Assembly (NCBI RefSeq): GCF_963921235.1
Contig: NC_086097.1
Location: forward strand, 92,878,001-92,942,000
DNA: 64,000 bases
From: Mobula hypostoma
Lineage: Eukaryota
Direction: 5' to 3'
The notes under the pieces are model-generated. The model searched no databases and had not been told where the DNA came from. It saw nothing but the letters and a program-made list of their open reading frames with translations. This document shows positions 7,201 to 56,096 of this stretch, piece by piece. Every line of letters begins with the position of its first letter. The stretch's first letter is position 1. Position numbers and translations under genes: made by a program.

Positions 7201-7326
7201 CCTGAACAAAGCAATCTATATTTAGTTTCAAACAACAGGAATTCTGCAGATGCTGGAAATTCAAGCAACACACATCAAAGTTGCTGGTGAACGCAGCAGG
7301 CCAGGCAGCATCTCTAGGAAGAGGTG

Positions 7327-7368
7327 CAGTCGACGTTTCAGGCCGAGACCCTTCATCAGGACTAACTG
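7327..7368 (-). ncRNA. Minimal type I hammerhead ribozyme in the inverted pLTR
   Basis: Minus strand CAGTTAGTC-CTGATGA-AGGGTCTCGGCCT-GAAA-CGTC-GACTG: intact core, stem I AGTC/GACT, stem II AGG/CCT, palindromic ACGT helix III, GUC cleavage triplet. Confidence 0.85.
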
Positions 7369-10155
7369 AAGGAAGAGTGAGTAAGGGATTTGAAAGTTGG
7401 CAGGGGATGGGGGAGATCCAAAATGATAGGAGAAGACAGGAGGGGGAGGGATAGAGCCAAGAGCTGGACAGGGTCTTTATGTGCTGCTGTTGTGACTCCC
7501 GTCTCCCCTTCCCCCACCACCACTCTGCAACCCCGTCTCCCTCAGATCCCATCGTCAGCTCCTGGGCCCTCAGAGGCTCCATCTTCCTCTCACCCCAACC
7601 CTCCCATCTCCATTGACACCACCAGCCTCCCCCCTCCCACCTCTGATCCCAGCTCTCATCCATGCCAGGTCTTTAACATCCCTTCCGACCTTCAACTGTC
7701 GGAGGCAGAACGCTCTGTCCTCAGTAAGGGATAAGCTTTGTCCTTTGTCCCCCTTCGCCCACACCTCAGCGAGTTCCGCATTCGCCATGATGTGGAACTC
7801 TTCTTCTGCCGTCTCCGTCTCCAAGCCTACTTCTTCGGCAAGGACTCTTCCACCCCCACCGATGACCCCCTCTCCCGTCTTCAACCCTCCTCTTCTTCAT
7901 GGACACCCCGCTCTGGTCTTCTGCCTGCTCTGGATCTCTTTATCGCTAATTGCCGACGGGACATCAACCATCTCGACTTCACTGCACCTTGACCCCATTC
8001 CAACCTCACTCCTTCGGAACACTCTGCTCTCCACTCCCTCCGCACTAATCCTAACCTTATTATTAAACCTGCCGATAAGGGGGGTGCTGTTGTAGTCTGG
8101 CGTACTGACCTCTACCTTGCCGAGGCACAGCGACAACTCGCAGATACCTCCTCTTATTTACCCCTCGATCGTGACCCCACTAAGGAGCACCAGGCCATTG
8201 TCTCCCACACCATCACCGACTTTATCCGCTCAGGGGATCTCCCATCCACTGCTACCAACCTTATAGTTCCCACACCCCGCACTTCCCGTTTCTACTTCCT
8301 ACCCAAGATCCACAAACCTGCCTGTCCTGGCAGACCTATTGTCTCAGCTTGCTCCTGCCCCACCGAACTCGTTTCTGCATACCTCGACACTGTTTTATCA
8401 CCCCTTGTTCAATCCCTTCCGACCTATGTTCGTGACACTTCTCACGCTCTTAAACTTTTCGATGATTTTAAGTTCCCTGGCCCCCACCGCTTTATTTTCA
8501 CCATGGATGTCCAGTCCTTATATACTTCCATCCCCCATCAGGAAGGTCTCAAAGCTCTACACTTCTTTTTGGATTCCAGACCTAATCAGTTCCCCTCTAC
8601 CATCACTCTGCTCCGTCTAGCGGAATTAGTCCTTACTCTTAATAATTTCTCCTTTTGCTCCTCCCACTTCCTCCAAACTAAAGGTGTAGCTATGGGCACC
8701 CGTATGGGTCCTAGCTATGCCTGCCTTTTTGTTGGGTTTGTGGAACAATCTATGTTCCGTGCCTATTCTGGTATCTGTCCCCCACTTTTCCTTCGCTACA
8801 TCGATGACTGCATTGGCGCTGCTTCCTGCACGCATGCAGAGCTCGTTGACTTTATTAACTTTGCCTCCAACTTTCACCCTGCCCTCAAGTTTACCTGGTC
8901 CATTTCCGACACTTCCCTCCCCTTTCTAGATCTTTCTGTCTCTGTCTCTGGAGACAGCTTATCCACTGATGTCTACTATAAGCCTACTGACTCTCACAGC
9001 TATCTGGACTATTCCTCTTCTCACCCTGTCTCTTGCAAAAACGCCATCCCCTTCTCACAATTCCTCCGTCTCCGCCGCATCTGCTCTCAGGATGAGGCTT
9101 TTCATTCTGGGACGAGGGAGATGTCTTCCTCTTTTAAAGAAAGGGGCTTCCCTTCCTCCACTATCAACTCTGCTCTTAGACGCATCTCCCCCATTTCACG
9201 TACATCTGCTCTCACTCCATCCTCCCGCCACCCCACTAGGAATAGGGTTCCCCTGGTCCTCACCTACCACCCCACCAGCCTCCGGGTCCAACATATTATT
9301 CTCCGTAACTTCCACCACCTCCAACGGGATCCCACCACTAAGCACATCTTTCCCTCCCCCCCTCTCTCTGCATTCCGCAGGGATCGCTCCCTACGCAACT
9401 CCCTTGTCCATTCGTCCCCCCAACCCTCCCCACTGATTTCCCTCCTGGCACTTATCCGTGTAAGCGGAACAAGTGCTACACATGCCCTTACACTTCCTCC
9501 CTTACCACCATTCAGGGCCCCAAACAGTCCTTCCAGGTGAGGCAACACTTCACCTGTGAGTCGGCTGGGGTGATACGGTTCTCCCGATGTGGCCTTTTAT
9601 ATATTGGCGAGACCCAACGCAGACTGGGAGACCGCTTTGCTGAACATCTACGCTCTGTCCACCAGAGAAAGCAGGATCTCCCAGTGGCCACACATTTTAA
9701 TTCCACATCCCATTCCCATTCTGATATGTCTATCCATGGCCTCCTCTACTGTAAAGATGAAGCCATGAAGCCACACTCAGGTTGGAGGAACAACACCTTA
9801 TATTCCGTCTGGGTAGCCTCCAACCTGATGGCATGAACATCGACTTCTCTAACTTCCGCTAAGGCCCCACCTCCCCCTCGTACCCCATCTGTTACTTATT
9901 TTTATGCACACATTCTTTCTCTCACTCTCCTTTTTCTCCCTCTGTCCCTCTGAATATACCTCTTGCCCATCCTCTGGGTCCCCCCCCCCTCCTTGTCTTT
10001 CTTCCCGGACCTCCTGTCCCATGATCCTCTCGTATCCCCTTTTGCCTATCACCTGTCCAGCTCTTGGCTCCATCCCTCCCCCCTCCTGTCTTCTCCTATC
10101 ATTTTGGATCTCTCCCTCCCCCTCCAACTTTCAAATCCCTTACTCACTCTTCCTT

Positions 10156-10197
10156 CAGTTAGTCCTGATGAAGGGTCTCAGCCTGAAACGTCGACTG
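10156..10197 (+). ncRNA. Minimal type I hammerhead ribozyme in the direct pLTR
   Basis: CAGTTAGTC-CTGATGA-AGGGTCTCAGCCT-GAAA-CGTC-GACTG. Confidence 0.85.
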
Positions 10198-11049
10198 TAC
10201 CTCTTCCTAGAGATGCTGGCTGGCCTGCTGCGTTCACCAGCAACTTTGATGTGTGTTGCTATATTTAGTTTGAAGCCATATTTATGTCCTTCTTATTTGA
10301 TCTCCTGCCTATTTTCAGTCAAGTCCACAACAGATCACAGGGCTGATTCCAATGTTCCATGAATTGAAAGCCATTTTTTTCTCAATGGGATCTGTGTCAC
10401 ACATTCAACACTCTGATCTTATTGGTACTATGCTAATCATTTGAATCAGGTAGTAAGTTCAGACTTTATTATCTTTGTGATTCTATTTTTTAATTTGGAC
10501 ACCATCTTCTTATATCCCTTCAGCAGAGCCGTCTTCTTCATCCAACCATGGTCACTGGCTCCCATAAGGACCACAAAATCGGGATTGTTTTCCTTCCACT
10601 CCAAACTCCTCACTGCTCCTGAGGAGCAATCTTCAACCCAGGCAGCACAACTCTCGGCGGGGGGGGGGGGTACCCACTGACAGGCATCTACACCTGTATC
10701 AACAAATATTTACACCCCCCCCGAACTATACTATACCCTATCACCATTATGTTCCCTCTCACTCCCTCCCATGAATGCCTCCCACCCTCTGAACATGGTT
10801 GTGCAGTCAGCTTGCCGATCCTCCCAGGAGTCTGTTTTACCCACACAGGCTGCAAAGGACCTTGACATCTCGCTGAGCAAGTCCATGGGCTAAGGCTGCT
10901 TCAATACTTCCTCTTGAACTCTCACTGGCTGGAATGAGTAGCAAAGAGCCCATTACGGGATCAATTAAACCAGTCGAGTAATAAATTCACCCGTATTCTA
11001 TTTTCTTCCTATGTTATCAGACGCATGCAGGGCTTTTAATGTTGTAGGA

Positions 11050-20456: not shown

Positions 20457-23400
20457 CTAAGTTGCATCAAACGTTAAATGCTTTTTAAATTCCATGCTCG
20501 TTGCGATTAAAAACCAATGTTCCTTTAACATTCTTAATTACTCGTTGTACCTATATTGCTGTCTGCAGTGTTTAGCACACGAGGACCCAGATTCCTCCGT
20601 ACTGCAACATTTATAGTCTAACACCATTCAAGTAATAATTTTCTTTTTTATTCTTCCAAATTTTATACTCCATCTGCCAACTTCCTGCCTACACTAATCC
20701 ATATCACTGTACAGATTCTTTGTTGTCTCTTCCTCTTACTAACCCATTTATCTTTGTATCTTTAGCAAATTTTGCCTACACAAAGCCCGTCCCTTCATCC
20801 AAGTCATTAACTAGAATGCAAATAGTTAAGGCTCCAACGCTGACGTTTGTGGCTGCTCGCTAGTTACTAATTTGCCAACGTAAAAATTAACCATTTATCC
20901 CAAATCAGTTTTGTTACCTGGCTATCCCTTGACTCATGTTGGTAGATTGCCTCAATTCTGTGTAGTAACCTTTCAAGTGGCACCTTTCTAAATACCTTCT
21001 GGAAATCCAAACACACCAGCCTTTAGCTGAATTAGTTTAAGGGGCAGTGACTTTATGTGCTGTATTTAATGCACCATTTAAAGACAGGTCTCCAGGAGGT
21101 GAGAGCTGTAACCACATCCTGCAATACTCCATATCTGAAAAGCAATGGGCTGGCTTCCTCCTGCCTGACAACCCCATCTCACACTCATCTTGGAATACAA
21201 AGGAATACAGAAGTGCGAGGGTTCAGTTCCTGCCCATCCTGCAGCATCACTGTTTATCATTGTTCCGACCATCGACGAAGTTCTGTAATGCCCCTTTTAA
21301 GGGAAGACATGCCCTTCACTAGAGGGCCCATTACTCAGCAATCTTGGGGGCGCATCACTCTGTGATGGGAGATTGTATCTTCACTAGACAACAGGTTATC
21401 CTGTGATGAGGAAACATACCTGGAACTTGGGAGAACGTTACTCTGTAATAGGGGATTGTGCATGAACCTAGTGGGTACATTTCAGAATCAGAATCAGATT
21501 TAATTGCACTGCCACATGTCATGAAATTTGTTATTTTGTGGAGCAGTACATTGCAATACATAATAATAAAAAACCATAAATTACAAGAAATATATAAAAC
21601 AAGCAGTGCAAAAAGAGAGAAAGAAGAAAAAAATAGTGATGTAGGTTACATGGGTTCATTGTCCATTCAGAAATCTGATGGTAGACAGGAAGAAACTCTT
21701 CCTGAAATGTTCAGTGGGTGGCTTCAGGCTCCTTTACCTCCTCATTGATGGTAGCAATGAGGGTGATGGGGGGGGTGGTCTTTAACGATGGATGCTACTC
21801 TCTTGAGGCATTGCTCCTTGAAGATGTCCTGAATGCTAGGGTGGCTAGTGCCCGTGATGGAGCTGACTGAGTTTAAAACTTTCTGCAGTTTTTTTCCCCG
21901 ATCCTGTGCAGTGGCCCCCTCCATACCAGGTGGTGATGCAACCTCTTGGAATAGTCTCCACAGTACATCTGTAGTAATCTGCAAGGGTCTTTGGTGACAT
22001 ATCAAATCTCCTCAAACTCCTAATGAAATACAGCTGCTTCATGCCATCTTTGTAACTGCATCAATGTGTCCGGCCCAGGATAAACCCTCAGAGATGTTGA
22101 CTCCCAGCAACTTGAAACGCTCACCCTTTCCCCACTGCTGACCCTTCAATGAGGACTGCTGTGTGCTTCCTTGACTTCCCCTTCCTGCAGTCCCCTATCA
22201 AGGTCTTGCTGACGTTGAGTGCAAGGTTGTTATACAACACCACTCAACCGGCTGATCTATCTCACTTCTGTACACCACCTCGTCACCTTCTGAAATTCTG
22301 CCAACACTGGCAAACTTATAGATGGCTTTTGAGCTGTGCCTAGCCACGCAGTTGTGGGTGTGGAGAGAGTAGAGCAGTGGGCTAAGCATACATCCTTAAG
22401 GTACAACAATGTTGATTGTCAGCAAGGAGGAGATGTTATTTCTGATCCGCACTGATTGTGGTCTCTGGTGAGGAAGTCAAGAATTCAGCTGGAGGTACCG
22501 AGGCCCAGGTTTTGGAGCTTGTTGATTTGTACTGAGGGGATGATGGTGTTGAATGATGAGGTGTAATTAATAAAGAGCAGCCTGATGTAGGTTTAGCTGT
22601 TGTCCAGGTGATCGAAGGCTGAGAGGAGAGCCAGTGAGATTGCATCTGCTGTCGACCTATTGTACTGATGGGCAAACTGTAGCAGGTCCAGGGCTTTGTT
22701 TAAGCAAGAGTTGATTCTGGACATGACCAACCTCTTAAGGCACTTCATCCAAGTAGATGTGATGGAATTGGGCAATGGTCATTGAGGTAGCTCACCCTGC
22801 TCTGCTTGTGCACTGGCTCTTTTGAAGCAGGTGGGAACCTCCAATTTCAGCAGTGGGAGATTAAAGATGTTCTTGAACGCTCACGCCAGTTGTTGTCACA
22901 GACTTCATTGTTTTTGAAAGTATTGCTTCCTCAGAAATATTTTTTGTTTATGATAGACCGCTTGAAGTTGAACACAAATATGATTTCGACTACTGTACTT
23001 GTATCATGGAGGAATTTGGAGAAACAAGAAATTAACTTTTATTGAATATAATGCATTTAATTGCATAATGGTGCTGATACTTCGCAATTTTTCAACTAAG
23101 CTAAAAATGTTTTGTTGATGACGTTCATTTGTACTCTGTCTCTGAGGCTTCTTGCTTCAGAGTCCAACAATAATCGACGTCCTTGAATGCCTTCCATGCA
23201 ATTTTCTCCGGTCCCACTAGAAGATCTTTGAACTGAACTTGATGATCTGTTTGATTTGTGGACCAACAAGAATGCCTTGCTTAAACTTGGCATCATTTAT
23301 TCTGGGAAACATCTGTCTCAAATATTGAAGTCCTTCACCTTCCTTGTTTATCACATCCACAACATTTTTCACAAGCGCCCGTCCTTTATGAAGAAGAGAC

Positions 23401-23863
23401 AAAAATAACTTTGTTGGATTAACAAGTGGCTTATGTGCCACACTTTTCTGCCCTGGAACCAACTGCTTACAGAGTGGCCAATCCTTTTAATGTGATCCAT
23501 GTAATGGGATTCTTTAGCACAGCTGTTCCATTCACAAATGAAACAACAGTATCTGGTGTATCCGAGCCACGTTCCTAGTACTCTCAGATCACCACAGATG
23601 TTCCAGTTGTAGTTGCTCTTCTGTATGTGTTTCAACAAGACTTTCAAATTTCAGTAGTTTTCTTTCATGTACTGGATAGCAAATTGGTATCGTAGGGTCG
23701 ACATTGTCGTTGTGCAATAGCACAGCTTTCAGACCTAGCACTGAAGAATCAATAAAAAAGACGCCATTATTGGGGGTCATGCAGGCAACCCAAAGCATGC
23801 CCAGGCATTCCTGGACAGGATTGAAAACTTTTCAGTTTATATTGTGGGCAACGTTTTAATTGA

Positions 23864-24032
23864 ATCACAAACTAGAGAAAATCTGCAGATGCTGGAAATC
23901 TGAGCAACACACACAAAATGCTGGAGGAACTCAGCAGGCCAGGCAGCATTCGGCCCAAAACCTCGATTATACTTTTTTCCCATAGATGCTGCCTGGCCTG
24001 CTGAGTTCCTCTAGCATTTTGTGTGTGTTGCT
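23864..24032. mobile_element. Fold-back solo PLE pLTR with 14-bp TSD
   Basis: 47-bp inverted arms 23903-23949 and 23986-24032; TSD AACGTTTTAATTGA (23850-23863) / AACATTTTAATTGA (24033-24046). Confidence 0.85.
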
Positions 24033-24074
24033 AACATTTTAATTGACTTGAATTATGAATTGAAATAACTGTTA

Positions 24075-24690: not shown

Positions 24691-26029
24691 ATAGGGGATT
24701 CCAAATAAATGGTGCAGTTCAGGGAAATTTCATGCTGACTTTCATGATCAGCAGCCCAAAATCCAAAAGGTACACCCAAAAGTATTCAGGAATCTAAATC
24801 TTTGTTGTCTGGCGTTTTCAGTGCCCAGCTAGGTACACCATCAAAGCCTGACGCTTTGCAAAGTCTCACCCGCTTGAAAGATACTCCGAGACGGTGATCA
24901 TAGGGGAATCAGACGCTGCAGAGATTCACACTTGTGTAGTTTCATTCTGCCTTTCAAATCATGTATAAAATATGTTGAGCTCGTCTGGGAGTGAAACATC
25001 ACAGCCTTTCGTGGTGTTAAGTTTTGATTTGCAGGAAGTAATGGCCTGAAAATCCTGCCAGAGCTGATGTGTATCTGATTCCATCTCTAACCTCCATCGG
25101 AATTGTTTTATTGTTCTTAAAATAGCCTTCCATGGGTCATAGCTGGACGACTTGTATAGTTCTGGATCTCCAGTCTTGACTGCCGCAGATCCAGTCCTCA
25201 GCAGACTATGAATCTTCACGTTCATCCATCGCTTTTTGTTTTGGTATGTCCATTATGTTCTCAAAGGCACACGCTGAACCATACAGGTCTTGATGAAGTT
25301 GGTAACAATTGTGGTGCATTCATTCAGATTTGAGGATGAGTCCCTGAATACTGATTCACAGCAATCCTGTAAATGCTGTTCCACCTCCCTTGACCATATC
25401 TTTTTGGGTCTCACCACTGTTGCTGCGGTCCTTAGACTCTGCGGGAGCAGAAGAACAGCTGGGTCATCAGACTTTCCAAGTTGCAAGCATGGGATGTCAC
25501 AGTAAGCACTCTTGATGGTGGTATAATAGTGGTCAAGTGTTTCAGCTCCTCTGGTTCCACAGGTGATATATTGTTCAGAGACTTCTTCAAGCTGACCTGG
25601 GTGAAATCCCCCACAATGATAGGGAAGGCAACAGGGTGCACAGTTTCATAGCTGCTGATCACAGTGCTAGTCTGACATTGGCGGAAGTGGAATGTAGAGT
25701 GCTACCAGGTAGACTTGGACCACTGTCTCAGCAGATAAAACAGACAACACTTGACTGCTAGATGTTCCAGGTCAGGTGGGCAGAACTGAATCTTTGCACC
25801 ACAACTTAGTTGTCCTATCTTTGTGGAGAATAATGAAACCATCGGGTTGCAGCATTGCATCTGAAATAGTAGGGGATAACCATGTTTCAGTGAAGCAAAG
25901 CACACAGCAGTCCGTGATGTCACTCTGGTTTCACAATCTTGCTCTGAGGTCTTCAGTTTTATTTTCCAGAGACAGTACATTTGCCAGCAGGATAATGGGA
26001 ACTGTACTCATCATTAATATGCATGTTAC

Positions 26030-26510
26030 CCCGTAACAAGGGATTGTGACTGAACCGACAGGGAGAAGTTTCCTGTAATGAAGGATTGTAACTGAACCGA
26101 TCAGGAGAAGTTCCCTGTAGTGAGGGATTGTAACTGAACCAATGGGGAGAAGTTCCCTGTAATGAGGGATTGTAACTGAACCAATCAGGAGAAACTCCCT
26201 GTAATGAGGGATTGTAACTGAACCGACGGGGAGAAGTTCCCTGTAATGAGGGATTGTAACAGAACCGATGGGGAGAAGTTCTCTGTAATGAGGGATTGTG
26301 ACTGAACTGAGCGGGAGAGGTTCCCTGTAATGAGGGATTGTAACTGAACTGATGGGGAGAAGTTCGTTGTAATGAGGGATTGTAACTGAACCGATGGGGA
26401 GAAGTTCGCTGTAATGAGGGATTGTAACTGAACCGATGGGGAGAAGTTTCCTGTAATGAGGGATTGTACTATCACTAAGGGGCAGATTACCCTGTAATGA
26501 AGGATTATCC
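26030..26510. repeat. 42-bp minisatellite, about 11 copies
   Basis: Unit TGAGGGATTGTAACTGAACCGATGGGGAGAAGTTCCCTGTAA; reads as the 14-aa repeat IGSVTIPHYRELLP on the minus strand. Confidence 0.95.
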
Positions 26511-26767
26511 TCTTCACTAGGTGACACATTACCAAGTATTGAGATGTCACTGGGAGTGGATTGACTCAGATATTCCCCTCATTAGGGTCCCCAGTACTCA
26601 GTATCATGGGCATGTGTCCCTTCACTGCAAGGCCTGCTCCCAAGTGAAGAAAGGAAATGCCTTTACTGGCAAGCCCGTGACTCAGTAATGAGGAAACAGG
26701 CCCTTACAGGAAAGAGATAAAAGAGCTTGGAGGCATGGTCTGATTACAACAGCCTTTCCCTCAATGT

Positions 26768-26865
26768 AAGCAACACAGAAATGCTGGAGGAAATCAGCAG
26801 GTCAGGCAGCCTCGATGAGGGGAAATGAACAGTCAACATTTTGGCTGGGGCTCTCCATCAGGAAC
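26768..26865 (-). mobile_element. Old PLE pLTR fragment with degenerate hammerhead
   Basis: Minus strand TTCCTGATGGAGAGCCCCAGCCAAAATGTTGACTG: both core boxes mutated. Confidence 0.65.
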
Positions 26866-27049
26866 AAAGTTTTTCACTGTAACTCATCCATGTGACAATA
26901 ATAACCAAATTTAACAATTTCAGCCAAGTGTCCTTTAACAAATGAGGAGAATCTTTCAATGGGGGGGGGGCATTGACTGGGTTGTGGTGGGATCTGCTCT
27001 AAACTTGGAAGCTCATTTTCCAACAATGATGCAATGAGTCTCTCACTTG

Positions 27050-30000
27050 GGAGCCCATCACCAGTAACGTTCACTGGGGGGACAATCACCAGTAACTTTC
27101 ACTGGAGAGCCCATCACCAGTAACTTTCACTGGAGAGCCCATCACCAGTAACATTCACTGGAAGATCCATCACCAACCAGTACCTGTCACTGGAGGTTCG
27201 ATCACCAATAACTTTCACTGGAGGATTGATCACCAGTAACTTTCACTGGGGGGCCATCACCAGTAACATTCACTGGAGGATCCATCACCAAACAGTAACA
27301 TTCACTGGAGGATCCATCACCAGTAACATTCACTGGTGGATCCATCACCAGTAACTTTCACTGGTGGACCCATCACCAGTAACGTTCACTGGAGACCCAT
27401 CACCAGTAACGTTCACTGGTGGGCCCATCAGCAGTAACATTCACTGGAGACCATCACCAGTAATGTTCACTGGTGGGCCCATCAGCAGTAACATTCACTG
27501 GAGACCATCACCAGTAACTTTCACTGGTGGACCCATCACCAGTAACGTTCACTGGAGACCATCACCAGTAACGTTCACTGGTGGGCCCATCAGCAGTAAC
27601 ATTCACTGGAGACCATCACCAGTAACGTTCACTGGAGGACCCATCACCAGTAACGTTCACTGGAGACCCATCACCAGTAACATTCACTGGAGAGCCCATC
27701 ACCAGTAACTTTCACTGGTGGACCCATCACCAGTAACGTTCACTGGAGACCCATCACCAGTAACGTTCACTGGTGGGCCCATCAGCAGTAACATTCACTG
27801 GAGACCATCACCAGTAACGTTCACTGGAGGACCCATCACCAGTAACATTCACTGGAGACCATCACCAGTAACGTTCACTGGAGGACCCATCACCAGTAAC
27901 GTTCACTGGAGACCCATCACCAGTAACGTTCACTGGAGGACCCATCACCAGTAACGTTCACTGGAGACCATCACCAGTAACGTTCACTGGAGACCCATCA
28001 CCAGTAACGTTCACTGGAGACCATCACCAGTAACGTTCACTGGTGGGCCCATCACCAGTAACATTCACTGGAGACCATCACCAGTAACGTTCACTGGAGA
28101 CCATCACCAGTAACGTTCACTGGAGACCATCACCAGTAACGTTCACTGGAGACCATCACCAGTAACGTTCACTGGAGACCATCACCAGTAACGTTCACTG
28201 GTGGGCCCATCACCAGTAACATTCACTGGAGACCATCACCAGTAACGTTCACTGGAGGACCCATCACCAGTAACGTTCACTGGAGACCATCACCAGTAAC
28301 GTTCACTGGAGGACCCATCACCAAACAGTAACATTCACTGGAGGATCCATCACCAGTAACATTCACTGGTGGATCCATCACCAGTAACTTTCACTGGTGG
28401 ACCCATCACCAGTAACATTCACTGGTGGGCCCATCACCAGTAACTTTCACTGGTGGGCCCATCAGCAGTAACATTCACTGGAGACCATCACCAGTAACGT
28501 TCACTGGTGGGCCCATCAGCAGTAACATTCACTGGAGACCATCACCAGTAACATTCACTGGAGAGCCCATCACCAGTAACTTTCACTGGTGGACCCATCA
28601 CCAGTAACGTTCACTGGAGACCCATCACCAGTAACGTTCACTGGTGGGCCCATCAGCAGTAACATTCACTGGAGACCATCACCAGTAACGTTCACTGGAG
28701 GACCCATCACCAGTAACATTCACTGGAGACCATCACCAGTAACGTTCACTGGAGAACCCATCACCAGTAACGTTCACTGGAGACCCATCACCAGTAACGT
28801 TCACTGGAGGACCCATCACCAGTAACGTTCACTGGAGACCATCACCAGTAACGTTCACTGGAGACCCATCACCAGTAACGTTCACTGGAGGACCCATCAC
28901 CAGTAACGTTCACTGGAGACCATCACCAGTAACGTTCACTGGTGGGCCCATCACCAGTAACATTCACTGGAGACCATCACCAGTAACGTTCACTGGAGGA
29001 CCCATCACCAGTAACGTTCACTGGAGACCATCACCAGTAACGTTCACTGGAGGACCCATCACCAAACAGTAACATTCACTGGAGGATCCATCACCAGTAA
29101 CATTCACTGGTGGATCCATCACCAGTAACTTTCACTGGTGGACCCATCACCAGTAACATTCACTGGTGGGCCCATCACCAGTAACTTTCACTGGTGGGCC
29201 CATCAGCAGTAACATTCACTGGAGACCATCACCAGTAACGTTCACTGGTGGGCCCATCAGCAGTAACATTCACTGGAGACCATCACCAGTAACATTCACT
29301 GGTGGGCCCATCACCAGTAACTTTCACTGGTGGGCCCATCACCAGTAACATTCACTGGTGGGCCCATCACCAGTAACTTTCACTGCTGGGCCCATCAGCA
29401 GTAACATTCACTGGAGACCATCACCAGTAACGTTCACTGGAGGACCCATCACCAGTAACGTTCACTGGAGACCATCACCAGTAACTTTCACTGGTGGGCC
29501 CATCAGCAGTAACATTCACTGGAGACCATCACCAGTAACGTTCACTGGTGGGCCCATCACCAGTAACATTCACTGGAGACCATCACCAGTAACGTTCACT
29601 GGAGACCATCACCAGTAACGTTCACTGGAGACCCATCACCAGTAACGTTCACTGGTGGGCCCATCACCAGTAACTTTCACTGGTGGGCCCATCACCAGTA
29701 ACGTTCACTGGAGGACCCATCACCAGTAACGTTCACTGGAGACCATCACCAGTAACGTTCACTGGAGACCATCACCAGTAACATTCACTGGAGACCATCA
29801 CCAGTAACATTCACTGGAGACCATCACCAGTAACATTCACTGGAGACCATCACCAGTAACGTTCACTGGAGACCATCACCAGTAACTTTCACTGGAGACC
29901 ATCACCAGTAACATTCACTGGAGACCATCACCAGTAACGTTCACTGGAGACCATCACCAGTAACTTTCACTGGTGGGCCCATCAGCAGTAACATTCACTG

Positions 30001-33000
30001 GAGACCATCACCAGTAACGTTCACTGGAGGACCCATCACCAGTAACGTTCACTGGTGGGCCCATCACCAGTAACGTTCACTGGAGGACCCATCACCAGTA
30101 ACGTTCACTGGAGGACCCATCACCAGTAACTTTCACTGGAGACCCATCACCAGTAACATTCACTGGAGACCATCACCAGTAACGTTCACTGGAGACCATC
30201 ACCAGTAACGTTCACTGGTGGGCCCATCACCAGTAACTTTCACTGGTGGGCCCATCAGCAGTAACATTCACTGGAGACCATCACCAGTAACGTTCACTGG
30301 AGGACCCATCACCAGTAACGTTCACTGGAGACCATCACCAGTAACGTTCACTGGAGACCATCACCAGTAACGTTCACTGGTGGGCCCATCACCAGTAACT
30401 TTCACTGGTGGGCCCATCACCAGTAACGTTCACTGGTGGGCCCATCACCAGTAACGTTCACTGGTGGGCCATCACCAGTAACGTTCACTGGAGACCATCA
30501 CCAGTAACGTTCACTGGAGGACCCATCACCAGTAACGTTCACTGGAGGACCCATCACCAGTAACGTTCACTGGTGGGCCCATCACCAGTAACTTTCACTG
30601 GTGGGCCCATCACCAGTAACTTTCACTGGTGGGCCCATCACCAGTAACTTTCACTGGTGGGCCCATCAGCAGTAACATTCACTGGAGACCATCACCAGTA
30701 ACGTTCACTAGTGGGCCCATCACCAGTAACGTTCACTGGAGACCCATCACCAGTAACGTTCACTGGAGGACCCATCACCAGTAACGTTCACTGGAGACCA
30801 TCACCAGTAACTTTCACTGGAAACCATCACCAGTAACGTTCACTGGAGACCATCACCAGTAACGTTCACTGGAGGACCCATCACCAGTAACGTTCACTGG
30901 AGACCATCACCAGTAACGTTCACTGGTGGGCCCATCACCAGTAACGTTCACTGGAGACCATCACCAGTAACGTTCACTGGTGGGCCCATCACCAGTAACG
31001 TTCACTGGAGACCATCACCAGTAACGTTCACTGGAGACCCATCACCAGTAACGTTCACTGGAGGACCCATCACCAGTAACGTTCACTGGAGACCATCACC
31101 AGTAACTTTCACTGGAGGACCCATCACCAGTAACTTTCACTGGAGGACCCATCACCAGTAACGTTCACTGGAGACCATCACCAGTAACGTTCACTGGAGA
31201 CCATCACCAGTAACGTTCACTGGAGACCATCACCAGTAACGTTCACTGGTGGGCCCATCACCAGTAACGTTCACTGGAGACCATCACCAGTAACGTTCAC
31301 TGGAGACCCATCACCAGTAACGTTCACTGGTGGGCCCATCACCAGTAACGTTCACTGGAGACCATCACCAGTAACGTTCACTGGAGGACCCATCACCAGT
31401 AACGTTCACTGGAGGACCCATCACCAGTAACGTTCACTGGTGGGCCCATCACCAGTAACGTTCACTGGAGACCATCACCAGTAACGTTCACTGGAGACCA
31501 TCACCAGTAACGTTCACTGGAGGACCCATCACCAGTAACGTTCACTGGTGGGCCCATCACCAGTAACTTTCACTGGTGGGCCCATCAGCAGTAACATTCA
31601 CTGGAGACCATCACCAGTAACGTTCACTGGAGACCATCACCAGTAACGTTCACTGGAGACCATCACCAGTAACGTTCACTGGAGGACCCATCACCAGTAA
31701 CGTTCACTGGAGACCCATCACCAGTAACTTTCACTGGAGACCCATCACCAGTAACTTTCACTGGAGACCCATCACCAGTAACATTCACTGGAGACCCATC
31801 ACCAGTAACGTTCACTGGAGACCATCACCAGTAACGTTCACTGGAGACCATCACCAGTAACGTTCACTGGAGGACCCATCACCAGTAACATTCACTGGAG
31901 ACCCATCACCAGTAACGTTCACTGGAGGACCCATCACCAGTAACGTTCACTGGAGACCATCACCAGTAACGTTCACTGGAGACCCATCACCAGTAACTTT
32001 CACTGGAGACCATCACCAGTAACGTTCACTGGAGACCATCACCAGTAACGTTCACTGGAGGACCCATCACCAGTAACGTTCACTGGAGACCATCACCAGT
32101 AACGTTCACTGGTGGGCCCATCACCAGTAACGTTCACTGGAGACCATCACCAGTAACGTTCACTGGTGGGCCCATCACCAGTAACGTTCACTGGAGACCA
32201 TCACCAGTAACGTTCACTGGAGACCCATCACCAGTAACGTTCACTGGAGGACCCATCACCAGTAACGTTCACTGGAGACCATCACCAGTAACTTTCACTG
32301 GAGGACCCATCACCAGTAACGTTCACTGGAGGACCCATCACCAGTAACGTTCACTGGAGACCATCACCAGTAACGTTCACTGGTGGGCCCATCACCAGTA
32401 ACGTTCACTGGAGACCATCACCAGTAACGTTCACTGGAGACCCATCACCAGTAACGTTCACTGGTGGGCCCATCACCAGTAACGTTCACTGGAGACCATC
32501 ACCAGTAACGTTCACTGGAGGACCCATCACCAGTAACGTTCACTGGAGGACCCATCACCAGTAACTTTCACTGGTGTGCCCATCACCAGTAACTTTCACT
32601 GGTGGGCCCATCACCAGTAACTTTCACTGGTGGGCCCATCAGCAGTAACATTCACTGGAGACCATCACCAGTAACGTTCACTGGAGACCATCACCAGTAA
32701 CGTTCACTGGAGGACCCATCACCAGTAACGTTCACTGGTGGGCCCATCACCAGTAACTTTCACTGGTGGGCCCATCAGCAGTAACATTCACTGGAGACCA
32801 TCACCAGTAACGTTCACTGGAGGACCCATCACCAGTAACGTTCACTGGAGGACCCATCACCAGTAACGTTCACTGGAGACCCATCACCAGTAACTTTCAC
32901 TGGAGACCCATCACCAGTAACTTTCACTGGAGACCCATCACCAGTAACATTCACTGGAGACCCATCACCAGTAACGTTCACTGGAGACCATCACCAGTAA

Positions 33001-33657
33001 CGTTCACTGGAGACCATCACCAGTAATGTTCACTGGAGGACCCATCACCAGTAACGTTCACTGGAGGACCCATCACCAGTAACGTTCACTGGAGACCATC
33101 ACCAGTAACTTTCACTGGAGACCCATCACCAGTAACTTTCACTGGAGACCATCACCAGTAACGTTCACTGGAGACCATCACCAGTAACGTTCACTGGAGA
33201 CCATCAGCAGTAACGTTCACTGGAGACCCATCACCAGTAACTTTCACTGGAGACCCATCACCAGTAACTTTCACTGGAGACCATCACCAGTAACGTTCAC
33301 TGGAGACCATCAGCAGTAACGTTCACTGGAGACCATCACCAGTAACGTTCACTGGAGACCATCAGCAGTAACGTTCACTGGAGACCATCACCAGTAACGT
33401 TCACTGGAGGACCCATCACCAGTAACGTTCACTGGAGGACCCATCACCAGTAACGTTCACTGGAGGACCCATCACCAGTAACTTTCACTGGAGACCATCA
33501 CCAGTAACGTTCACTGGAGACCCATCACCAGTAACGTTCACTGGAGACCATCACCAGTAACGTTCACTGGAGACCATCACCAGTAACATTCACTGGAGAC
33601 CATCACCAGTAACGTTCACTGGAGACCTATCAGCAGTAACGTTCACTGGAGACCCAT
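27050..33657. repeat. 6.6-kb tandem array of 26-28-bp near-palindromic monomers (roughly 245 units from length/27)
   Basis: 23-nt core CCATCACCAGTAAC[G/A/T]TTCACTGG plus linker AGA, AGAC, AGGAC, TGGGC or rarer variants; degenerate left edge. Confidence 0.98.
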
Positions 33658-34102
33658 AAGTTAGTGGACTGTGCCCTTCAGTAGAGGGTATATTACCCAC
33701 TCCTGATCAGATGAGTCCGTCACATGGGATTATTACACAATAATGAAACATTGTATTCCTCATTAGGGCCATCACCAGTGGAGAGCGCACGTCCGTCTTA
33801 CTAACACAGTCTTCACCCATTACAAAGGGTTGAGACTTCATGAGGATGAATTTTACCCACTAATGGAGTGACATGCCTTTTGTTAGGGGCTCATTTATCA
33901 GTGAGGGCTTGACTCCATCTCACAGCAGGACTAAACTTCCCACCATTCCTGACCAAGAAAATCAAGAAAGTCAGACTTGAATTTCAGTTTTATTCATGCA
34001 AGCAATATGGGTTTTGTGGGTTGAGCCAGATGCTATTTGCCCTTGAGACGATGGTGGCAAGCTGCCATCTTGAACCACTGCAGCCAGTGATGCGTGAGGT
34101 GT

Positions 34103-34500: not shown

Positions 34501-37500
34501 TCATCATCATCAGGTGCCGTGCCCAGTTTGAGCTTTGACTGCCATGGCCCACACATTCCTGTTTCGGGTCAAGTGGATCAATTCATTGGTATTCATTTCC
34601 AGTTCTCTGGCTGCTGTCTGCAACATCATTTGTCTTTGTCTTCCTCTTGCTTTCTTCCCTTCAATCTTTCCCATAATTACCGTGCATTCTAACTCCTCTT
34701 TCCTAATCACATGTCCAATGAAGTTACGTTGCCTTTTCATGATCTCATACATTATTTCTCTTTTTGTGTTTGCTCTGTTCATGACATCCTCATTAGATAT
34801 TCGTTTCATCCATGATATTCTTTGCATCCTCCTCAAAAACCACATCTCTGCTGCTTCAATTCATTTCCTCATGTTACTAGATATTCTCCAACATTCTGAG
34901 CCATATAACATCACTGGATAAACGTAACATTTCAGTACTCTGAGGCGGGTTGTCGTGCCTAGTGTAGTATTGGTCAGTATACTCTTCATTCTCGTAAAGG
35001 TGTCTTTTGCCATCCCTATTCTTCTTTTGATGTCCATGTCACACCTGCCATCTGATGTCACCCAGCTTCCTTTTTTTCGGCGTGTGTCTGCGTGTGCGTG
35101 TGCGTGTGCGTGTGCGTGTGCGTGCATGCGTCCGTGATGTCTTTCTCATGGCTTTTTACAAGGTGCAGAGCGAAAGAGAGACTCTTCCACTCCTCACACA
35201 GACATTTTCGCAGTATTTTCCCCTTTGTTTTACAAGGTCGAGTTGCGATCTCAACATTCAACCGGGCACGGATGGAAAGCGTACTCGGACCCTACTGGTT
35301 TTGAGCCCGGGAACTTCTGCTCCCGGGTCCGGCGCCGATGTCATTGCGCCACCAGCGGACCCATCACCCAGCTTCCTAAGTAGCAAAAGCTCTGTACTTG
35401 TTTTATGTCTTCCCCGTTTATTCTCAGCCTGCAGATAGGATTCTCCTTCTTTTTGGATATCACCATACATTCTGTCTTTTTGCAGTTGATAGATAGACCC
35501 ATTTTTGCACTTTCTTCAACAACTATATCAATTAAGTTTTGTAGTTCTTCCTCCGTACTTGCAATTAACAGTGTCATCTACATATCTGAAATTATTGGTA
35601 TTTTCACCACCAATTTTGATTCCAAAGATGTCTCTTATTTTTTTGTAATATTGTTTCACTGTACACATTAAACAAATCAGGGGAGAAAACACACCCTTGT
35701 CTAACGCCTCGCTTGATTTTCGTAAACTGACTCACTTCTCCATCTATTCTTACAGCGGCAGTTTGTTCCCAGTACAGATTTCTGATTAGGCGGAGGTCTT
35801 TTGAATCTGATCTAGAGTTTCCTGTAATATTTCAAATAACTTATTGTGCTTCACTTTATCAAATGCTTTTGTGTGGTCGATAAAACAAACAAACAAATCT
35901 CTTTGCACTTGAATAGCTCGTTCTGATGGTATCCTTAACATCAGTATCATGTTTCTTGTACCTTTGTCTTTCACAAAACCGCATTGTTCTTCACCTATTG
36001 CAGCTTGTATCTTACTTTTAGCTTTTGTCATCAAAATTCTTAGAAGTATCTTGGTGATATAACTCATTAAACTTATGGTCCTATGTAATTCACATTCTAT
36101 TGCTCCAGGTTTCCTAGGTAGAGTGATAAATACTGATTTTTTCATCTCTTCTGGTATTATCCCACTCTCATAAATGTCATTGATTAAATCAGTAAGTTTT
36201 TCAATTCCATAATCTTTAAGGGTGATAATTTGTTCCGTTACTAATTCATCAGGACCTGCTGCCTTTCCTTTCTTCATCTTATTTATTGCATTACGAACTT
36301 CAGATTTTAAAATACTTGGACCTTCAATGTTCTTCTTAATTTCTGGTTTATCGCTTCAATCGTCTTCAAACAATTCCTGAATATACTCAGTCCATCTATT
36401 CATAATCTCATCTTTTTCCATGATAATGGTACCGTCCTTTGCTTTCAAACATCCACCTGAAGAACAGAGGAGCTTTTTACCAGTGATATTCTTGATTTGT
36501 TGATGTAACCTTTTTGGATCAGTAATAGGGATTCTTTCTATTTGCTCACATTCCTGGTTTAACCATTCTTCTTTGGCTTTTTGACATAAGCTTTCAACTT
36601 TTTTATCTGTCTTATATTCTACAGGATTTGCTTCCTTCCGTCTCCTTTCTTCCATCAGATTTTTGATTTCATCTGTCATCTATTTATTCTTTGTGCTTTT
36701 TTTCTTTTTTAGGAACCACTGACTTTGCTGATTCTACCAAGGCATCCTTTAGAGAGTTAAACTTCGTTTCTACATGATTGCTATCATCTTCAACAGATTC
36801 TATTTCTAGACTTTGAAATCTATTCCTTACTTCAATTGTAAATTTTTGTCTTAAGTTTTCTTCTTTAATTAATTGCAAGTAGTCAAGGGACTGTTCAAGT
36901 TTTTGCTTCTTTAGTTTTTTAAGTTTTACTTTTACATGACATACTACTGGGTTATGGTCACTATTACAGTCTGCACCTGGATATGTTTTGCATTGAGTCA
37001 CTGAGTTTCTAAATCTTTGGTTTATAATAATAAAGTCAATTTGATTTCTAGTGTTATCACCTGGACTTTTCCAGGTCCACAAGCGTCTTGGATGGTTTTT
37101 AAAGTGGGTATCCATAATGTCCTGATTATTCATCTTGCACCATTCTACCCATTTCTCACCTCTTTCATTTCTTTCCCCCAGTCCAAATTTTCCTATGGTG
37201 TTTCCATCAGCACCTTGTCCTACTTTAACATTTAGATCTCTCATGACAATAGGAATATCTTGAGACTTGCATCCATTCTTTGCTTGTTCAAGCTCTTCAT
37301 AGAATTTATCTATATCCTCATTTGTTCCATCTGTCGTTGGTGCTTATACCTGTATAATTGCTGAATCAAATGGTTGTCCTCTGAATCTAACAAGGAGCAC
37401 TCTTTCTGATATTGCCCAATGTCCTAAAACACTTTTTGCCATGTTTTCATCCATAAGAATTCCTACTCCATTAGTATGGGATGTTCCACAAGAATAAATT

Positions 37501-38185
37501 AGTGTTTTATTTCTATTCTGACATGTTCCAGCACTTATCCAATGAACTTCGCTAATTCCCATGATGTTAATCTTTAGTCTTTCCATTTCATTTATCACAT
37601 TGTCCAATCTTCCTGCTTGATATAGGGTTCTTACATTCCAAGTGGCAATAATTTTCTTTTGTGTTACTTGAATTTTATGAGCAGTAGCTTGATGACGGTC
37701 GGGGATCCCCTGCTGACCAGAATCAATCCTACTGAGCAAAGCATCTTCGGAGTTGTCTTGAAGATACTCTTGATGCTGCTGTTGTGTGATACATTTTGAG
37801 AGTTTGACCATGGTTTTCTTAGTAAATAGATTTCAGCAAACACAGTAGCTAGCAACGGTGGTTTGCTATTGCCTTCCGTTGGGCGAACTAAAAAAATCGC
37901 CACTTCTCTTCCCAAATGTTCATCCACCTGTACTATAGCCGTTGACATTTGAGGTCCTAGCTCATCCACCTTCTCCATCATAAGTTCAGTTACAGAACCT
38001 GCCGGATCTGTCGTTGCCTTTGCTCATATCCTGAGCAGGAACCCTTGCAGGTGCTACTGTTCCGGGTCAGAGCGGCCCTGGGAGCAATGAATGACTAAGG
38101 GGTAACTCCACTTTCCCCAAAGCTCTGAAAGTCCCCAATCAGAACCTCATCACCAGTTGCAGTTTAGAGTGATACCCAGGATATT
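34501..38185 (-). mobile_element. Near full-length RTE-clade (BovB/Expander-like) LINE, inactivated
   Basis: AP endonuclease IATWNVRTLY, GISEVHW, DLNVKVG, TWKSPG..RNQIDFI, SDHNPV; RT KAAGPD, HRTISLMS, EQCGF, FIDHTKAFDKV, YVDD; YPVMLYGSECW; (GAT)n 3' tail; several stops and frameshifts. Confidence 0.95.
35072..35363 (-). mobile_element. Young tRNA-derived SINE with A-tail inserted in the RTE; 14-bp TSD
   Basis: TSD TCACCCAGCTTCCT at 35058-35071 and 35364-35377; A-box-like TGGCGCAATG; (GCACAC)n tract; CpG retained. Confidence 0.85.
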
Positions 38186-52010: not shown

Positions 52011-55000
52011 ATTAATGCAACATAAAACTGTATATGTACAGAACATTCAATTTCCCTTTTATAAACCCATATTCCAAATAGGCACGCTTTCACATTAACA
52101 GTCCATCACTAAGTTCACAGTTCTGAAGATTCAGTCTTTTGGGTGGCTTTCTGTTTCTTTCAGGATTGTGCCTCTGGACCTGTGGAGTGCCATCAGCTTT
52201 GGTAAGTGTCTTGTCTAAGACAACATTTGGTTGCCAGTGTCACTTTGGTGTCAGTGACATGATCATCACTGAGAGGAAAGTCTGGTAGCTGTAATGTGTC
52301 CGTCTTGCTGGATGCAGTCGACTCAGGTGTGTTCTTCAGTTGAGCATCCCATATCTGGTCCACATGACGTCTCCATGTTTGATCTCCAACACTGTGTACC
52401 CCAGTGGTCCAGTTCTCGTAGCAATCCTACTGGGTGACCATCTACCTTCTCTGTAGTCATGCACTAGGACTTCCTGTCCAACCTCAAACCTTCTTGCTGC
52501 ATCACCTAGCAACTGGCTGAACTGTTTATTCTGCAATTCCCTCCGTAGATCTAGTTTCAGGAGATCTATGCAACATCTCAGATTCCTGCTCATGAACAGC
52601 ATTGCAGGTGTTTGATTTGTTGTCGCATGAACCAAGTTCCGATACACAAAAGGAAGTTGTCCACCTTGTGCTGTAGAGAAATGTCCTCTTTGTTCTTAGC
52701 TTTAATGGACTTCGTGAAGGTTTGGATAAATTTTTCAGCTAACCCATTCATTGCTGTATGGTGAAGAGATGACTTGAAATGTCTGATGCCATTTTTCTTT
52801 GTGAATAGTCTGATTTCATCTGACGTGTAGTGTGATCTGTTATCACTCACAATTTGTTCTGGTAAGCCGTGTCTGGCGAAGATAGTCCTCAGAGCAGAGA
52901 CAGTCTTTGCTGCGGTGGTTGATTTCATTGGTATGACCTCCAGCCACTTTGAATGAGCATCCACAGCAATCAGAAACGTGGAGTCCATGAATAGCCCAGC
53001 AAAGTCAACATGCTCTCTTTGCCATGGTGATGACCACTCCCACAGGTGAAACAGTACCTGTGGGGATGCAGATTGAACTTTTTGCCGTCCCAAACAGCTT
53101 TTGGCCAAGTCTTCGATCTGTTTACCAATTCCTGGCCATCACACGTAGCTCTGGGCGAGCCTCTTCATCTTGACTGTAGCCAGGTGTTTATCATGCAGAT
53201 TTTCTAACACTCTGGTGTGCAGTTTAGAGGGAACTACAACACGAGATTCACACATCTGCGTTCTGCGGTCTTGTCTTGCTAAGAACTCTGGAAACCATGA
53301 GCTGGCCATCCTTGCATGGTGATGTCATAGACTTTTGACAATATCAGGACCTTCCTTGTTTCTCTTTGTATTTCTGAATTTATTACTGGCAACTGGTCCA
53401 CCAATACAATGTGGAACACTTCTGCTGGGTCACAGTATGAAGACTCTCTTCTTCAGTTGCCAGTAGTGGAAGACCTGACAAGCCATCAGCATTGCTGTGT
53501 TGTTTGGTACCCTTGAACTCTATGTCATAAGAGTGGGCTGCTAGGAACAGTGCTCAACATTGTAACTGGGTAGCAGTCATCACTGGAATTCCCTTCCTGG
53601 GATTGAAAATGGAAACAAGTGGCTGGTGATCTGTCACTAGCGTAAACTTTTGTCCATAGAGGTAGTGGTGGAACTTCTTTATTCCCCATACTAGACTAAG
53701 GGCCTCTCAGTCGATCTGTGTGTAGATGTGTGTCTACACTCATCACTGATCTTGACGCAAATGCAACTGGGTGTTCAGATCCGTTTTTCATAGCGTGCAT
53801 TAAAAGGGCTCCAATGCCATAAGGGGACACATCGTACACCAGTCTGATGGTCAGGGATGGGTCATAACGGGTGCAGAGTTCATCTGATGCTATTAGTCTC
53901 TTTGTTTCCTTGAATGTTTTTTCACATCTTTCTGACCATTCCCACTGTGCTCCTGTCTGTAACAGAGCATTCAATGGATGCAGCAGTGTAGCAATGTTTG
54001 AGAAAAACCGGTGGTAGTAGTTTACAAGACCTAAATATGACCTGAGTTGTGACACATTTTCCAGTTTGGGTGCCTGTAGCATTCTCTTCTCTTGTGACTT
54101 ATGTAAGCTGTACTTGTCAATATATTTCACTTTCGAAATCTCACATCTCTCTGTCTTTGCACGCAGACCATACTCACTCAGCCTGTAAGCACATTACCAA
54201 TGTTCTGGAGATGCTCTTCATCATTCTTGCCTGTCACAATGATGTCATCAAGGTAACACTGTGTTCCTGGGATATCCTGGAGCACTTGGTCCATTGCTCT
54301 TTGCCAAATTGCTGGAGCTGATGTGACGCTAAAGACAAGATGATTATACTGGAACAGTCTCTTGTGAGTGTTGATTGTAAGAAACTTCCTGCTTGACTCC
54401 TCAATCTCCACTTGCAGATAGGCTTATGACAAGTCAATCCTTGAAAACCTCTCCCCATCTGCCAAAGATGCAAAAATGTTTTCTATTTGTGGGCCAGGAG
54501 ATACTGCACTGTACGCAGCACCGGGTTGATGCTCACTTTGAAATCCCCACATATGGAAACAGCTCCCTTTCTTTATCACCAGAACAATAGACATGGCCCA
54601 ATTGCTCCACTCAACCCTGGAGAGAATTCCAGACACTTTCAAGCCCTGAAGTTCAGCATCCACTTTAGGACGTGGTGTGTAAGACACTGGACGCGTTTTA
54701 TGAAATCTTGGTGTTGCTGTTTCATCCAGTTCAATTCTGGCCTTCATGCCTTTGAGTTTACCAATCCCCTTCTCAAACCCTTCTCATTAGCGTTAAGCTG
54801 CTGTGACAGTCTCTGGTTAGTGCTAGCATTTGTGCTGTCTTTGCCTGCTGATGTCACACTGACAGCTTTGATTGAGTGCCAGTCTAGTTGGATTTTTCTC
54901 AACCATTCACATTCAAAAAGTGCTGGTCTTCTACTTTTCAACACAAAGCTCTAACTGCTGTGTTTGGCCTCCATACATCACATTTACTTTTAGTTTGCCT

Positions 55001-56053: not shown

Positions 56054-56096
<43 letters not shown>

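What the first reader, a model, noticed from the sequence alone, without database searches (positions are those of the whole stretch)
27050..33657. 6.6-kb array of near-perfect palindromes with a small alphabet of variants
Seen: every monomer contains CCAGTAAC|GTTcACTGG, a 16-bp palindrome broken only by one extra C and centred on AACGTT. With the TGGGC linker the stem extends (CACCAGT..ACTGGTG) and a second palindrome, GGGCCC, forms. Variation is nearly confined to three slots: the central base (G/A/T), the linker (AGA, AGAC, AGGAC, TGGGC) and CAC/CAG, while the stem arms are almost invariant over roughly 245 units. Inference: any monomer can pair with itself or any other, so the array could form cruciforms, branched ssDNA or a long structured RNA, or act as a dense array of dyad sites for a dimeric DNA-binding protein that a central CpG could switch by methylation. 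Recent amplification alone could also explain the homogeneity.
Basis: partly seen in the sequence, partly recalled or inferred. Interest (0 to 1): 0.72.

Follow-up and report, generated by a model that had tools for sequence, protein, structure and literature searches.

The report
Recently expanded hairpin-prone minisatellite
This is a real but ordinary variable tandem repeat: a 27-base unit that can fold into a weak hairpin grew from about a dozen copies, as still seen in a close relative, to 243 copies here, with no clear sign that the palindrome is being kept for a function.

Summary
The array is real: 243 units of 26-32 bp at 27050-33657 in transposon-rich vertebrate DNA. The claim that every unit holds the palindrome is wrong. 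Only 146 of 243 carry it intact, two of the three variable slots lie inside it, and non-stem ATCA is as constant as the arms. Private mutations do not clearly avoid the stem (2 of 8, p=0.12); amplified variants show a weak tendency to (p=0.02-0.17). Three related organisms hold the same locus. One has about 12 units on a single contig bridging the array, one few copies, one a moderate expansion. Their units carry stem-breaking changes and T centres. The unit is a 28-bp slice of an older local 42-bp repeat whose ends are inverted complements, so head-to-tail duplication creates a palindrome at each junction. Best reading: a single-locus VNTR, like human MSY1, that expanded about 20-fold by block duplication, probably helped by hairpins. 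Transcription, binding and methylation were not testable. The scan's notes hold no look-alike of this sequence on other DNA. New member of a known kind; low interest.

The parts
27050..33657 (+). Minisatellite/VNTR array, 243 units of 26-32 bp (17-bp quasi-palindromic core plus 9-15-bp linker), variant units interspersed
27061..27077 (+). Example of the exact core CCAGTAACGTTCACTGG (5-bp perfect arms around 7 nt, or 8-bp arms with one bulged C); exact in 146 of 243 units
27061..27392 (+). Units 1-12, the old heterogeneous 5' end of the array (G centre in only 2 of 12); same length (332 bp) as the whole array of organism B (about 330 bp)
28159..29300 (+). Region of internal block duplication: a 14-unit run starting at 28159 recurs exactly at 28900; an 11-unit run at 30830 recurs at 32016; longest run in 200 order-shuffles was 6 (end coordinate approximate)
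33650..33997 (+). Right flank, orthologous in organisms B (6 substitutions in 348 bp) and C and D (23 other letters and an 8-bp insertion in 334 bp), each joined to a terminal array unit
26039..26468 (+). Separate 42-bp minisatellite (10.2 copies), a younger expansion of the old local repeat; not hairpin-prone (z -0.5)
26470..26710 (+). Decayed copies of the old 41-42-bp repeat; 4 of the top 20 profile hits for the 28-bp unit lie here (26470, 26512, 26620, 26661)
21255..21475 (+). Further decayed copies of the old 42-bp repeat, separated by about 4.5 kb of largely interspersed-repeat DNA; holds the best match to the 28-bp unit outside the array (21314-21342, score 22.4 against 15.7 for the next hit)

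Best explanation
A single-locus, non-coding minisatellite (VNTR) with no function of its own. Step 1 (supported by alignment): the region held an old, decayed 41-42-bp tandem repeat. Step 2 (inferred): a 28-bp slice of it, whose two ends are imperfect inverted complements, was duplicated head to tail, so each junction now reads as a palindrome; the palindrome is a by-product of the unit's borders. Step 3 (shown in relatives): a short, mixed array existed before the four organisms split, and organism B still has about 12 units. Step 4 (shown): in this lineage it grew about 20-fold by duplication of multi-unit blocks from the 3' part, which multiplied the few variants already present and left little time for new mutation. 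That explains the small alphabet and the near-invariance of stem and non-stem positions alike. Step 5 (inferred, about 50%): hairpins within or between units in transiently single-stranded DNA promote slippage or break-induced gene conversion, as proposed for human MSY1.
For: 243 units with a degenerate 5' end and decayed ends. Exact 14- and 11-unit block repeats against a shuffle maximum of 6. Organism B: one 1216-bp contig runs from the unit-1 linker (30 of 30 letters identical to 27077-27106) to the right flank, giving about 12 units in 330 bp; no other unit-bearing contig was laid in that run. Organisms C and D have the orthologous flank joined to a unit; unit-contig depth is 4-12 against a flank of 9.5 in C, and 69.5 and 30.5 against 5.7 in D. 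Run X1: a 53-bp junction contig at depth 191 against about 276 expected from the assembled array (flank 7.8), so there is roughly one locus of this size (rough). Origin: 5 of the top 20 profile hits, including the best, fall in old-repeat segments covering 1.07% of positions (p=2e-6). Private substitutions: 2 of 8 in the stem, 4 of 8 in the 17-bp palindrome (p=0.12 and 0.34). Copy number does not track folding energy over 35 unit types (rho -0.12, p=0.51). No Rfam or tRNA hit. No ORF over 117 aa in the array. Only transposon-type Pfam domains, plus three repeat-driven matches in the 42-bp array, among 300 frames scanned.
Against: Weak stem-sparing signals: 7 of 23 substitution types in the stem (p=0.047); 0 of 6 amplified-variant sites in the inner stem (p=0.021, 0.082 with the outer pair, 0.17 clustered); rho -0.42, p=0.077 among the 19 types with two or more copies. 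The G centre that perfects the palindrome rises from 2 of 12 to 59 of 108 to 92 of 123 along the array; a founder effect explains it but selection is not excluded. The direct 42-mer versus 28-mer alignment is not significant (70 of 500 shuffles as good), nor is the right flank's likeness to either unit (47 and 40 of 200). Organism B's contig has depth 2.6, so its single-letter differences may be errors. Run X1 may be the source sample. Contig depth is not a copy number.
Confidence: 0.85

Rival explanations
1. Structure-selected selfish repeat: the array has no host function, but units that keep or improve the hairpin are copied preferentially, so the stem is spared and the G centre swept.
For: Folding beats shuffled-unit controls for most common types (5, 18, 0, 1 and 2 of 300 shuffles as good). 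Amplified variants avoid the inner stem (p=0.021). The G centre rises along the array. A similar role of the hairpin is argued for MSY1 (PMC2599865, passages).
Against: A poorly folding type (188 of 300 shuffles as good) still reached 17 copies, and the best-folding type is not the commonest. Non-stem ATCA is equally spared. Unit lengths vary here (26, 27, 28, 32), whereas length constancy is the argument given for MSY1. Organism D's most abundant unit contig differs by one unlisted letter from the G-centred unit, probably the centre (inference).
Confidence: 0.3
2. Functional dyad array: a dense platform for a dimeric DNA-binding protein or for cruciform-like non-B DNA, switchable by methylation of the central CpG, perhaps centromere-like.
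For: The locus and the core persist across four organisms with up to 7% flank divergence. Short dyads are enriched at many centromeres (PMC5889037, passages). Two independent C-to-T changes at the CpG suggest it is methylated (p=0.03 for one named site).
Against: 90 of 243 units lack the central G. Terminal units of B, C and D have a T centre, and stem positions 3, 5, 6, 11 and 17 are changed in relatives' units. Array size differs about 20-fold between organisms 1.7% apart. Perfect arms are at most 7 bp. The array is 6.6 kb and apparently single-locus, far below satellite-centromere scale (own knowledge). CpG decay is ordinary for vertebrate repeats (own knowledge).
Confidence: 0.05
3. The array is transcribed into a long structured RNA or small RNAs with a role.
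For: Both strands fold well in prediction.
Against: No Rfam family matches. The array is absent at this size in the nearest relative.
Confidence: 0.04
4. Assembly artefact: a short array inflated by the assembler.
For: The exact length was not checked with spanning long reads, and the best holder may be the source sample.
Against: Unit contigs in run X1 are tens to hundreds of times deeper than the flank. The right junction with its private variant lies on a 728-bp contig with 0 differences. Nine private changes are scattered along the array.
Confidence: 0.03

Closest known systems
Human Y minisatellite MSY1 (DYF155S1); PMC2599865, passages read
   Same: Single-locus array of 25-bp units (48-118 copies) with a few base-substitution variants. 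The unit is predicted to form a hairpin, alone or with neighbours, and this is proposed to promote slippage or breaks repaired by strand annealing.
   Different: MSY1 is 75% A+T, its variants sit in blocks and unit length never varies. This array is 51% G+C, has interspersed variants, four unit lengths and 243 copies. Not homologous; a functional analogue only.
Classical vertebrate minisatellites with variant repeats (MS32, CEB1, MS205), as described in the introduction of PMC2599865
   Same: 9-100-bp units, interspersed variant units, gains by block duplication or conversion, large length differences.
   Different: Length polymorphism among individuals was not shown here, only among organisms. 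A link to a recombination hotspot was not tested.
FRA16B AT-rich fragile-site repeat; PMC4412965, passage read
   Same: Repeat DNA that forms secondary structure; there it stalls polymerase and is unstable.
   Different: AT-rich and tied to a cytogenetic fragile site; nothing of the kind was shown here.
Centromeric satellites with short dyad symmetries; PMC5889037, passages read
   Same: Tandem DNA rich in dyads under 10 bp that are predicted to form non-B structures.
   Different: This array is 6.6 kb, apparently single-locus and about 12 units in a close relative; no CENP-A data.

Membership tests
Minisatellite / VNTR | Head-to-tail units of about 9-100 bp in an array of up to tens of kb | tested here: met
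   243 units of 26-32 bp over 6.6 kb
Minisatellite / VNTR | Locus-specific, with unique orthologous flanks | tested here: met
   Same right flank joined to a unit in four organisms; no second array in the window; run X1 depth roughly fits one locus; whole genome not available
Minisatellite / VNTR | Copy number varies | tested here: met
   About 12 units in organism B against 243 here; intermediate depth in D. Shown between organisms, not among individuals of one species
Minisatellite / VNTR | Interspersed variant units with multi-unit duplications | tested here: met
   36 unit types; exact 14- and 11-unit repeats against a shuffle maximum of 6
MSY1-like hairpin-constrained minisatellite | Unit predicted to form a hairpin | tested here: met
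   5-bp stem per unit; stronger multi-unit folds
MSY1-like hairpin-constrained minisatellite | Unit length invariant and variants in blocks | tested here: not met
   Lengths 26, 27, 28 and 32; variants interspersed
Selected dyad or protein-binding array | Stem positions conserved above neighbouring non-stem positions and flank | tested here: inconclusive
   Private changes p=0.12; types p=0.047; amplified sites p=0.02-0.17; ATCA equally constant; five stem positions changed in relatives
Selected dyad or protein-binding array | Central CpG present in all units and species | tested here: not met
   G centre in 153 of 243; T centre in the terminal units of B, C and D
Selected dyad or protein-binding array | Specific protein binding or methylation-dependent occupancy | not testable with these tools
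   No ChIP, ATAC or methylation data
Centromeric or multi-locus satellite DNA | Very high genomic copy number, long arrays | tested here: not met
   Depth of a common junction contig 191 against about 276 expected from this array alone; rough, as contig depth is no strict copy number
Structured non-coding RNA | Known family match or transcription | tested here: inconclusive
   No Rfam match; expression could not be judged
Coding VNTR | Frame-preserving units in an open frame | tested here: not met
   Mixed 26/27/28-bp units; longest frame in the array 117 aa

The most novel reading that the evidence does not exclude
The expansion in this lineage was not neutral. Units that perfect the palindrome (G centre, stem-extending linker) were favoured, and the 6.6-kb array now acts as a newly born non-B DNA or protein-binding platform whose central CpG can be methylated. 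The four organisms would then form a time series from a 12-unit seed to a functional element.
Probability: 0.06. Interest if true: 0.55.

Novelty: new member of a known kind. Interest (0 to 1): 0.17.

Why it matters
As it stands it matters little: hairpin-prone minisatellites are known. Its modest value is as a clean case history. The seed (an older 42-bp repeat), a short ancestral state (about 12 units), and separate moderate and large expansions can all be seen at one locus. With long reads from these organisms one could test whether foldable units are preferentially amplified. It also shows a general trap: a tandem unit with inverted ends reads as an array of palindromes, and recent amplification makes every position look conserved.

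Tried and rejected
No whole genome is held, so other arrays in the genome and any host gene could not be searched directly. Pfam scans of 300 stop-to-stop frames (150 frames of 55 aa or more in 12000-39767; 150 of the 204 frames of 62 aa or more elsewhere) gave only reverse transcriptase, endonuclease, RNase H, integrase and ALKBH8_N hits, plus three matches in the 42-bp repeat with no passing stretch; short exons would be missed. Rfam and ARAGORN found nothing. Run search: no RNA holder listed, which is no evidence either way. The unit pattern gave 3 loci in metagenome contigs and 29 in viral contigs, each a single match, none an array; not pursued. Direct 42-mer versus 28-mer alignment was not significant, nor was the right flank against either unit; the origin claim rests on the decayed copies. 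Autocorrelation found no other long array in the window. A recalled resemblance of the unit to zinc-finger linker DNA was dropped: six-frame translations of the old-repeat segments show scattered stops and no evident Cys/His pattern by eye. Five paper searches listed no description of this array. A mobulid genome preprint (10.64898/2026.10.27.761883, passages) has no mention of minisatellites or palindromes in its main text; its supplements were not seen.
Full report
Observation. The array is at the stated place. TRF reports 243.3 copies of a 28-bp period at 27050-33654. Anchoring on the 17-bp core gives 243 units from 27061 to 33649; of 242 spacings, 94 are 26 bp, 32 are 27 bp, 112 are 28 bp and 4 are 32 bp. 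There are 36 distinct unit types. The exact palindromic core is in 146 of 243 units, not all; the central base is G in 153, A in 46 and T in 44. The CAC/CAG slot is the outermost base of the claimed stem and is non-C in 24 units, so two of the three variable slots lie inside the palindrome. The four bases ATCA, outside the palindrome, are as constant as the arms (238-242 of 242).

Folding. Four array pieces of 84-91 nt fold better than dinucleotide shuffles (z -3.4 to -6.6), while the neighbouring 42-bp repeat does not (z -0.5). One unit alone forms only a 5-bp stem with a 7-nt loop at about -2.5 kcal/mol, and perfect inverted arms in the array never exceed 7 bp. Trimers of the six commonest types were compared with trimers of shuffled units: 5, 18, 0, 1, 188 and 2 of 300 shuffles folded as well. 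The unit is therefore hairpin-prone when single-stranded, but a weak candidate for cruciform extrusion from duplex DNA (inference).

Is the stem spared? Outside the ten degenerate 5' units there are 8 private substitutions and one deletion. Two are in the stem, two at the central CpG and four in the linker; with the stem at 52% of positions, p=0.12, and 4 of 8 fall in the 17-bp palindrome (p=0.34). Results leaning the other way: 7 of 23 distinct substitution types fall in the 14 stem positions (one-sided p=0.047). None of 6 sites with an amplified variant lies in the 12 inner stem positions (p=0.021; 0.082 counting the outer pair; 0.17 if the clustered linker sites count once). Copy number against folding energy gives rho -0.12 (p=0.51) over 35 types and -0.42 (p=0.077) over the 19 types with two or more copies. 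The G centre rises from 2 of 12 to 59 of 108 to 92 of 123 units along the array. This is a hint of structure-biased copying at most, not evidence of function.

Internal history. A run of 14 units at 28159 recurs exactly at 28900 and a run of 11 at 30830 recurs at 32016; in 200 shuffles of unit order the longest repeated run was 6. The 5' end is the most diverged part. This is growth by duplication of multi-unit blocks.

Relatives. A run search with 26500-34000 listed ten holders in four organisms: A (share 0.67-0.68, possibly the source sample), B (0.23 in four runs), C (0.06) and D (0.05). I laid one run of each on 33549-34000, the last four units plus the right flank. In A, a 728-bp contig covers the junction with no differences, and unit contigs are far deeper than the flank (7.8). 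One 53-bp contig, which I take from the insertion table to be the G-centred junction with the AGGACC linker, has depth 191 against about 276 expected from the assembled array. That fits one locus of roughly this size; the tool warns that contig depth is no strict copy number. In B a single 1216-bp contig was laid. Its loose end equals window 27077-27106 letter for letter, and position arithmetic puts its whole array at about 330 bp, 12 units, the same span as units 1-12 here (332 bp). Its flank differs at 6 of 348 bases. Its depth is 2.6, so single letters may be errors. C and D have the same flank (23 other letters and an 8-bp insertion in 334 bp) joined directly to a unit. C's listed unit contigs are at about flank depth; D's are at 69.5 and 30.5 against 5.7, a moderate separate expansion. 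The terminal units of B, C and D all have a T centre. Stem positions 3 and 17 (B), 6 and 11 (C) and 5 (D) are changed in the few units visible. Each of the four terminal units has one non-central core change in 16 bases, no fewer than the flank divergence would give; the numbers are small. So the locus is shared, the large size is private, and the CpG palindrome is not conserved.

Origin. Three 42-bp units from the neighbouring array find their best match in the window at 21301 (z 6.5; 0 of 200 shuffles as good), which shows an older decayed repeat split by interspersed-repeat DNA. A profile of the 19 distinct 28-bp segments, phased on the linker, was run over both strands outside the array. 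Its best hit is at 21314 (22.4 against 15.7 for the next), and 5 of the top 20 hits lie in old-repeat segments covering 1.07% of positions (p=2e-6). At 26661 and 26620 the two ends of this slice already pair with each other; at three other old copies they do not. The direct 42-mer versus 28-mer alignment is not significant (70 of 500), nor is the right flank's likeness to either unit. I infer that a 28-bp slice with inverted ends was duplicated in tandem, which makes a palindrome at every junction. Polymerase slippage at a hairpin between short direct repeats has been shown in vitro with archaeal enzymes (PMC4134008, abstract); its role here is inferred.

Surroundings. The window is dominated by retroelement remains. 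No host gene, Rfam family or tRNA was found, though short exons would be missed and no whole genome is held. Earlier scan notes call the genome a devil ray; I did not test this. They also record other arrays born in place in the same genome, and no look-alike of this sequence.

Comparison with known systems. It meets the tested features of a minisatellite/VNTR. The closest analogue is human MSY1: 25-bp units, 48-118 copies, a few variants, and a predicted hairpin proposed to promote slippage or strand-annealing repair (PMC2599865, passages). It differs in base composition, interspersion and variable unit length, so it works like MSY1 without meeting its length-constancy feature. FRA16B (PMC4412965, passage) and dyad-rich centromeric satellites (PMC5889037, passages) are more distant. 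Five paper searches listed no description of this locus, and a mobulid genome preprint does not mention minisatellites in its main text (supplements not seen).

Verdict. A real, recently expanded, single-locus minisatellite whose palindrome is most likely a by-product of how the unit was cut from an older repeat (confidence 0.85). Hairpin-biased copying is a compatible add-on (0.3). A functional dyad array or RNA is unlikely (about 0.05 each) but untested at the bench. New member of a known kind; interest 0.17.

Noticed in passing
window 26039-26468: A second minisatellite, 42 bp x 10.2, 600 bp upstream. All three minus-strand frames are open across it (215, 169 and 126 aa), but the frame is not kept in the decayed neighbours, so probably chance.
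   Followed up: partly
window 21255-21475, 26010-26710 and, by eye, 33650-33950: An old decayed 41-42-bp tandem repeat, split by about 4.5 kb of interspersed repeats, has seeded two separate young arrays (42-bp and 28-bp).
   Followed up: yes
window units 15 (27457) and 220 (33020): Two separate C-to-T changes at the central CpG among only 8 private substitutions, and 46 units with a G-to-A centre; fits methylation-driven decay.
   Followed up: partly
window 28293-28420 and 29034-29160: Copies of the old 5' units (the 32-bp type with a 4-bp duplication and its neighbours) reappear twice deep in the array, marking large intra-array duplications or conversion.
   Followed up: partly
window 33925: Organisms C and D carry 8 extra bases here, and position arithmetic implies B has 8 extra bases in this part of the flank too, so the window's organism probably has a private 8-bp deletion.
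   Followed up: no
window 7264-10260 and 55781-57458: Two copies of a retroelement 89% alike in opposite orientation, one with a 515-aa frame bearing a reverse transcriptase domain (7993-9537); it looks Penelope-like from recall.
   Followed up: no
window 35344-37832 (-): A fragmented LINE with endonuclease and reverse transcriptase domains, 1.7 kb downstream of the array.
   Followed up: no
window 52336-54783 (-): A decayed LTR-type pol region (RNase H and integrase domains) in several frames.
   Followed up: no
window 23860-24030, 26770-26860 and several other places: A short interspersed element, at 23883-24033 with long inverted ends, recurs many times in the window; it is recalled as typical of ray genomes.
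   Followed up: no
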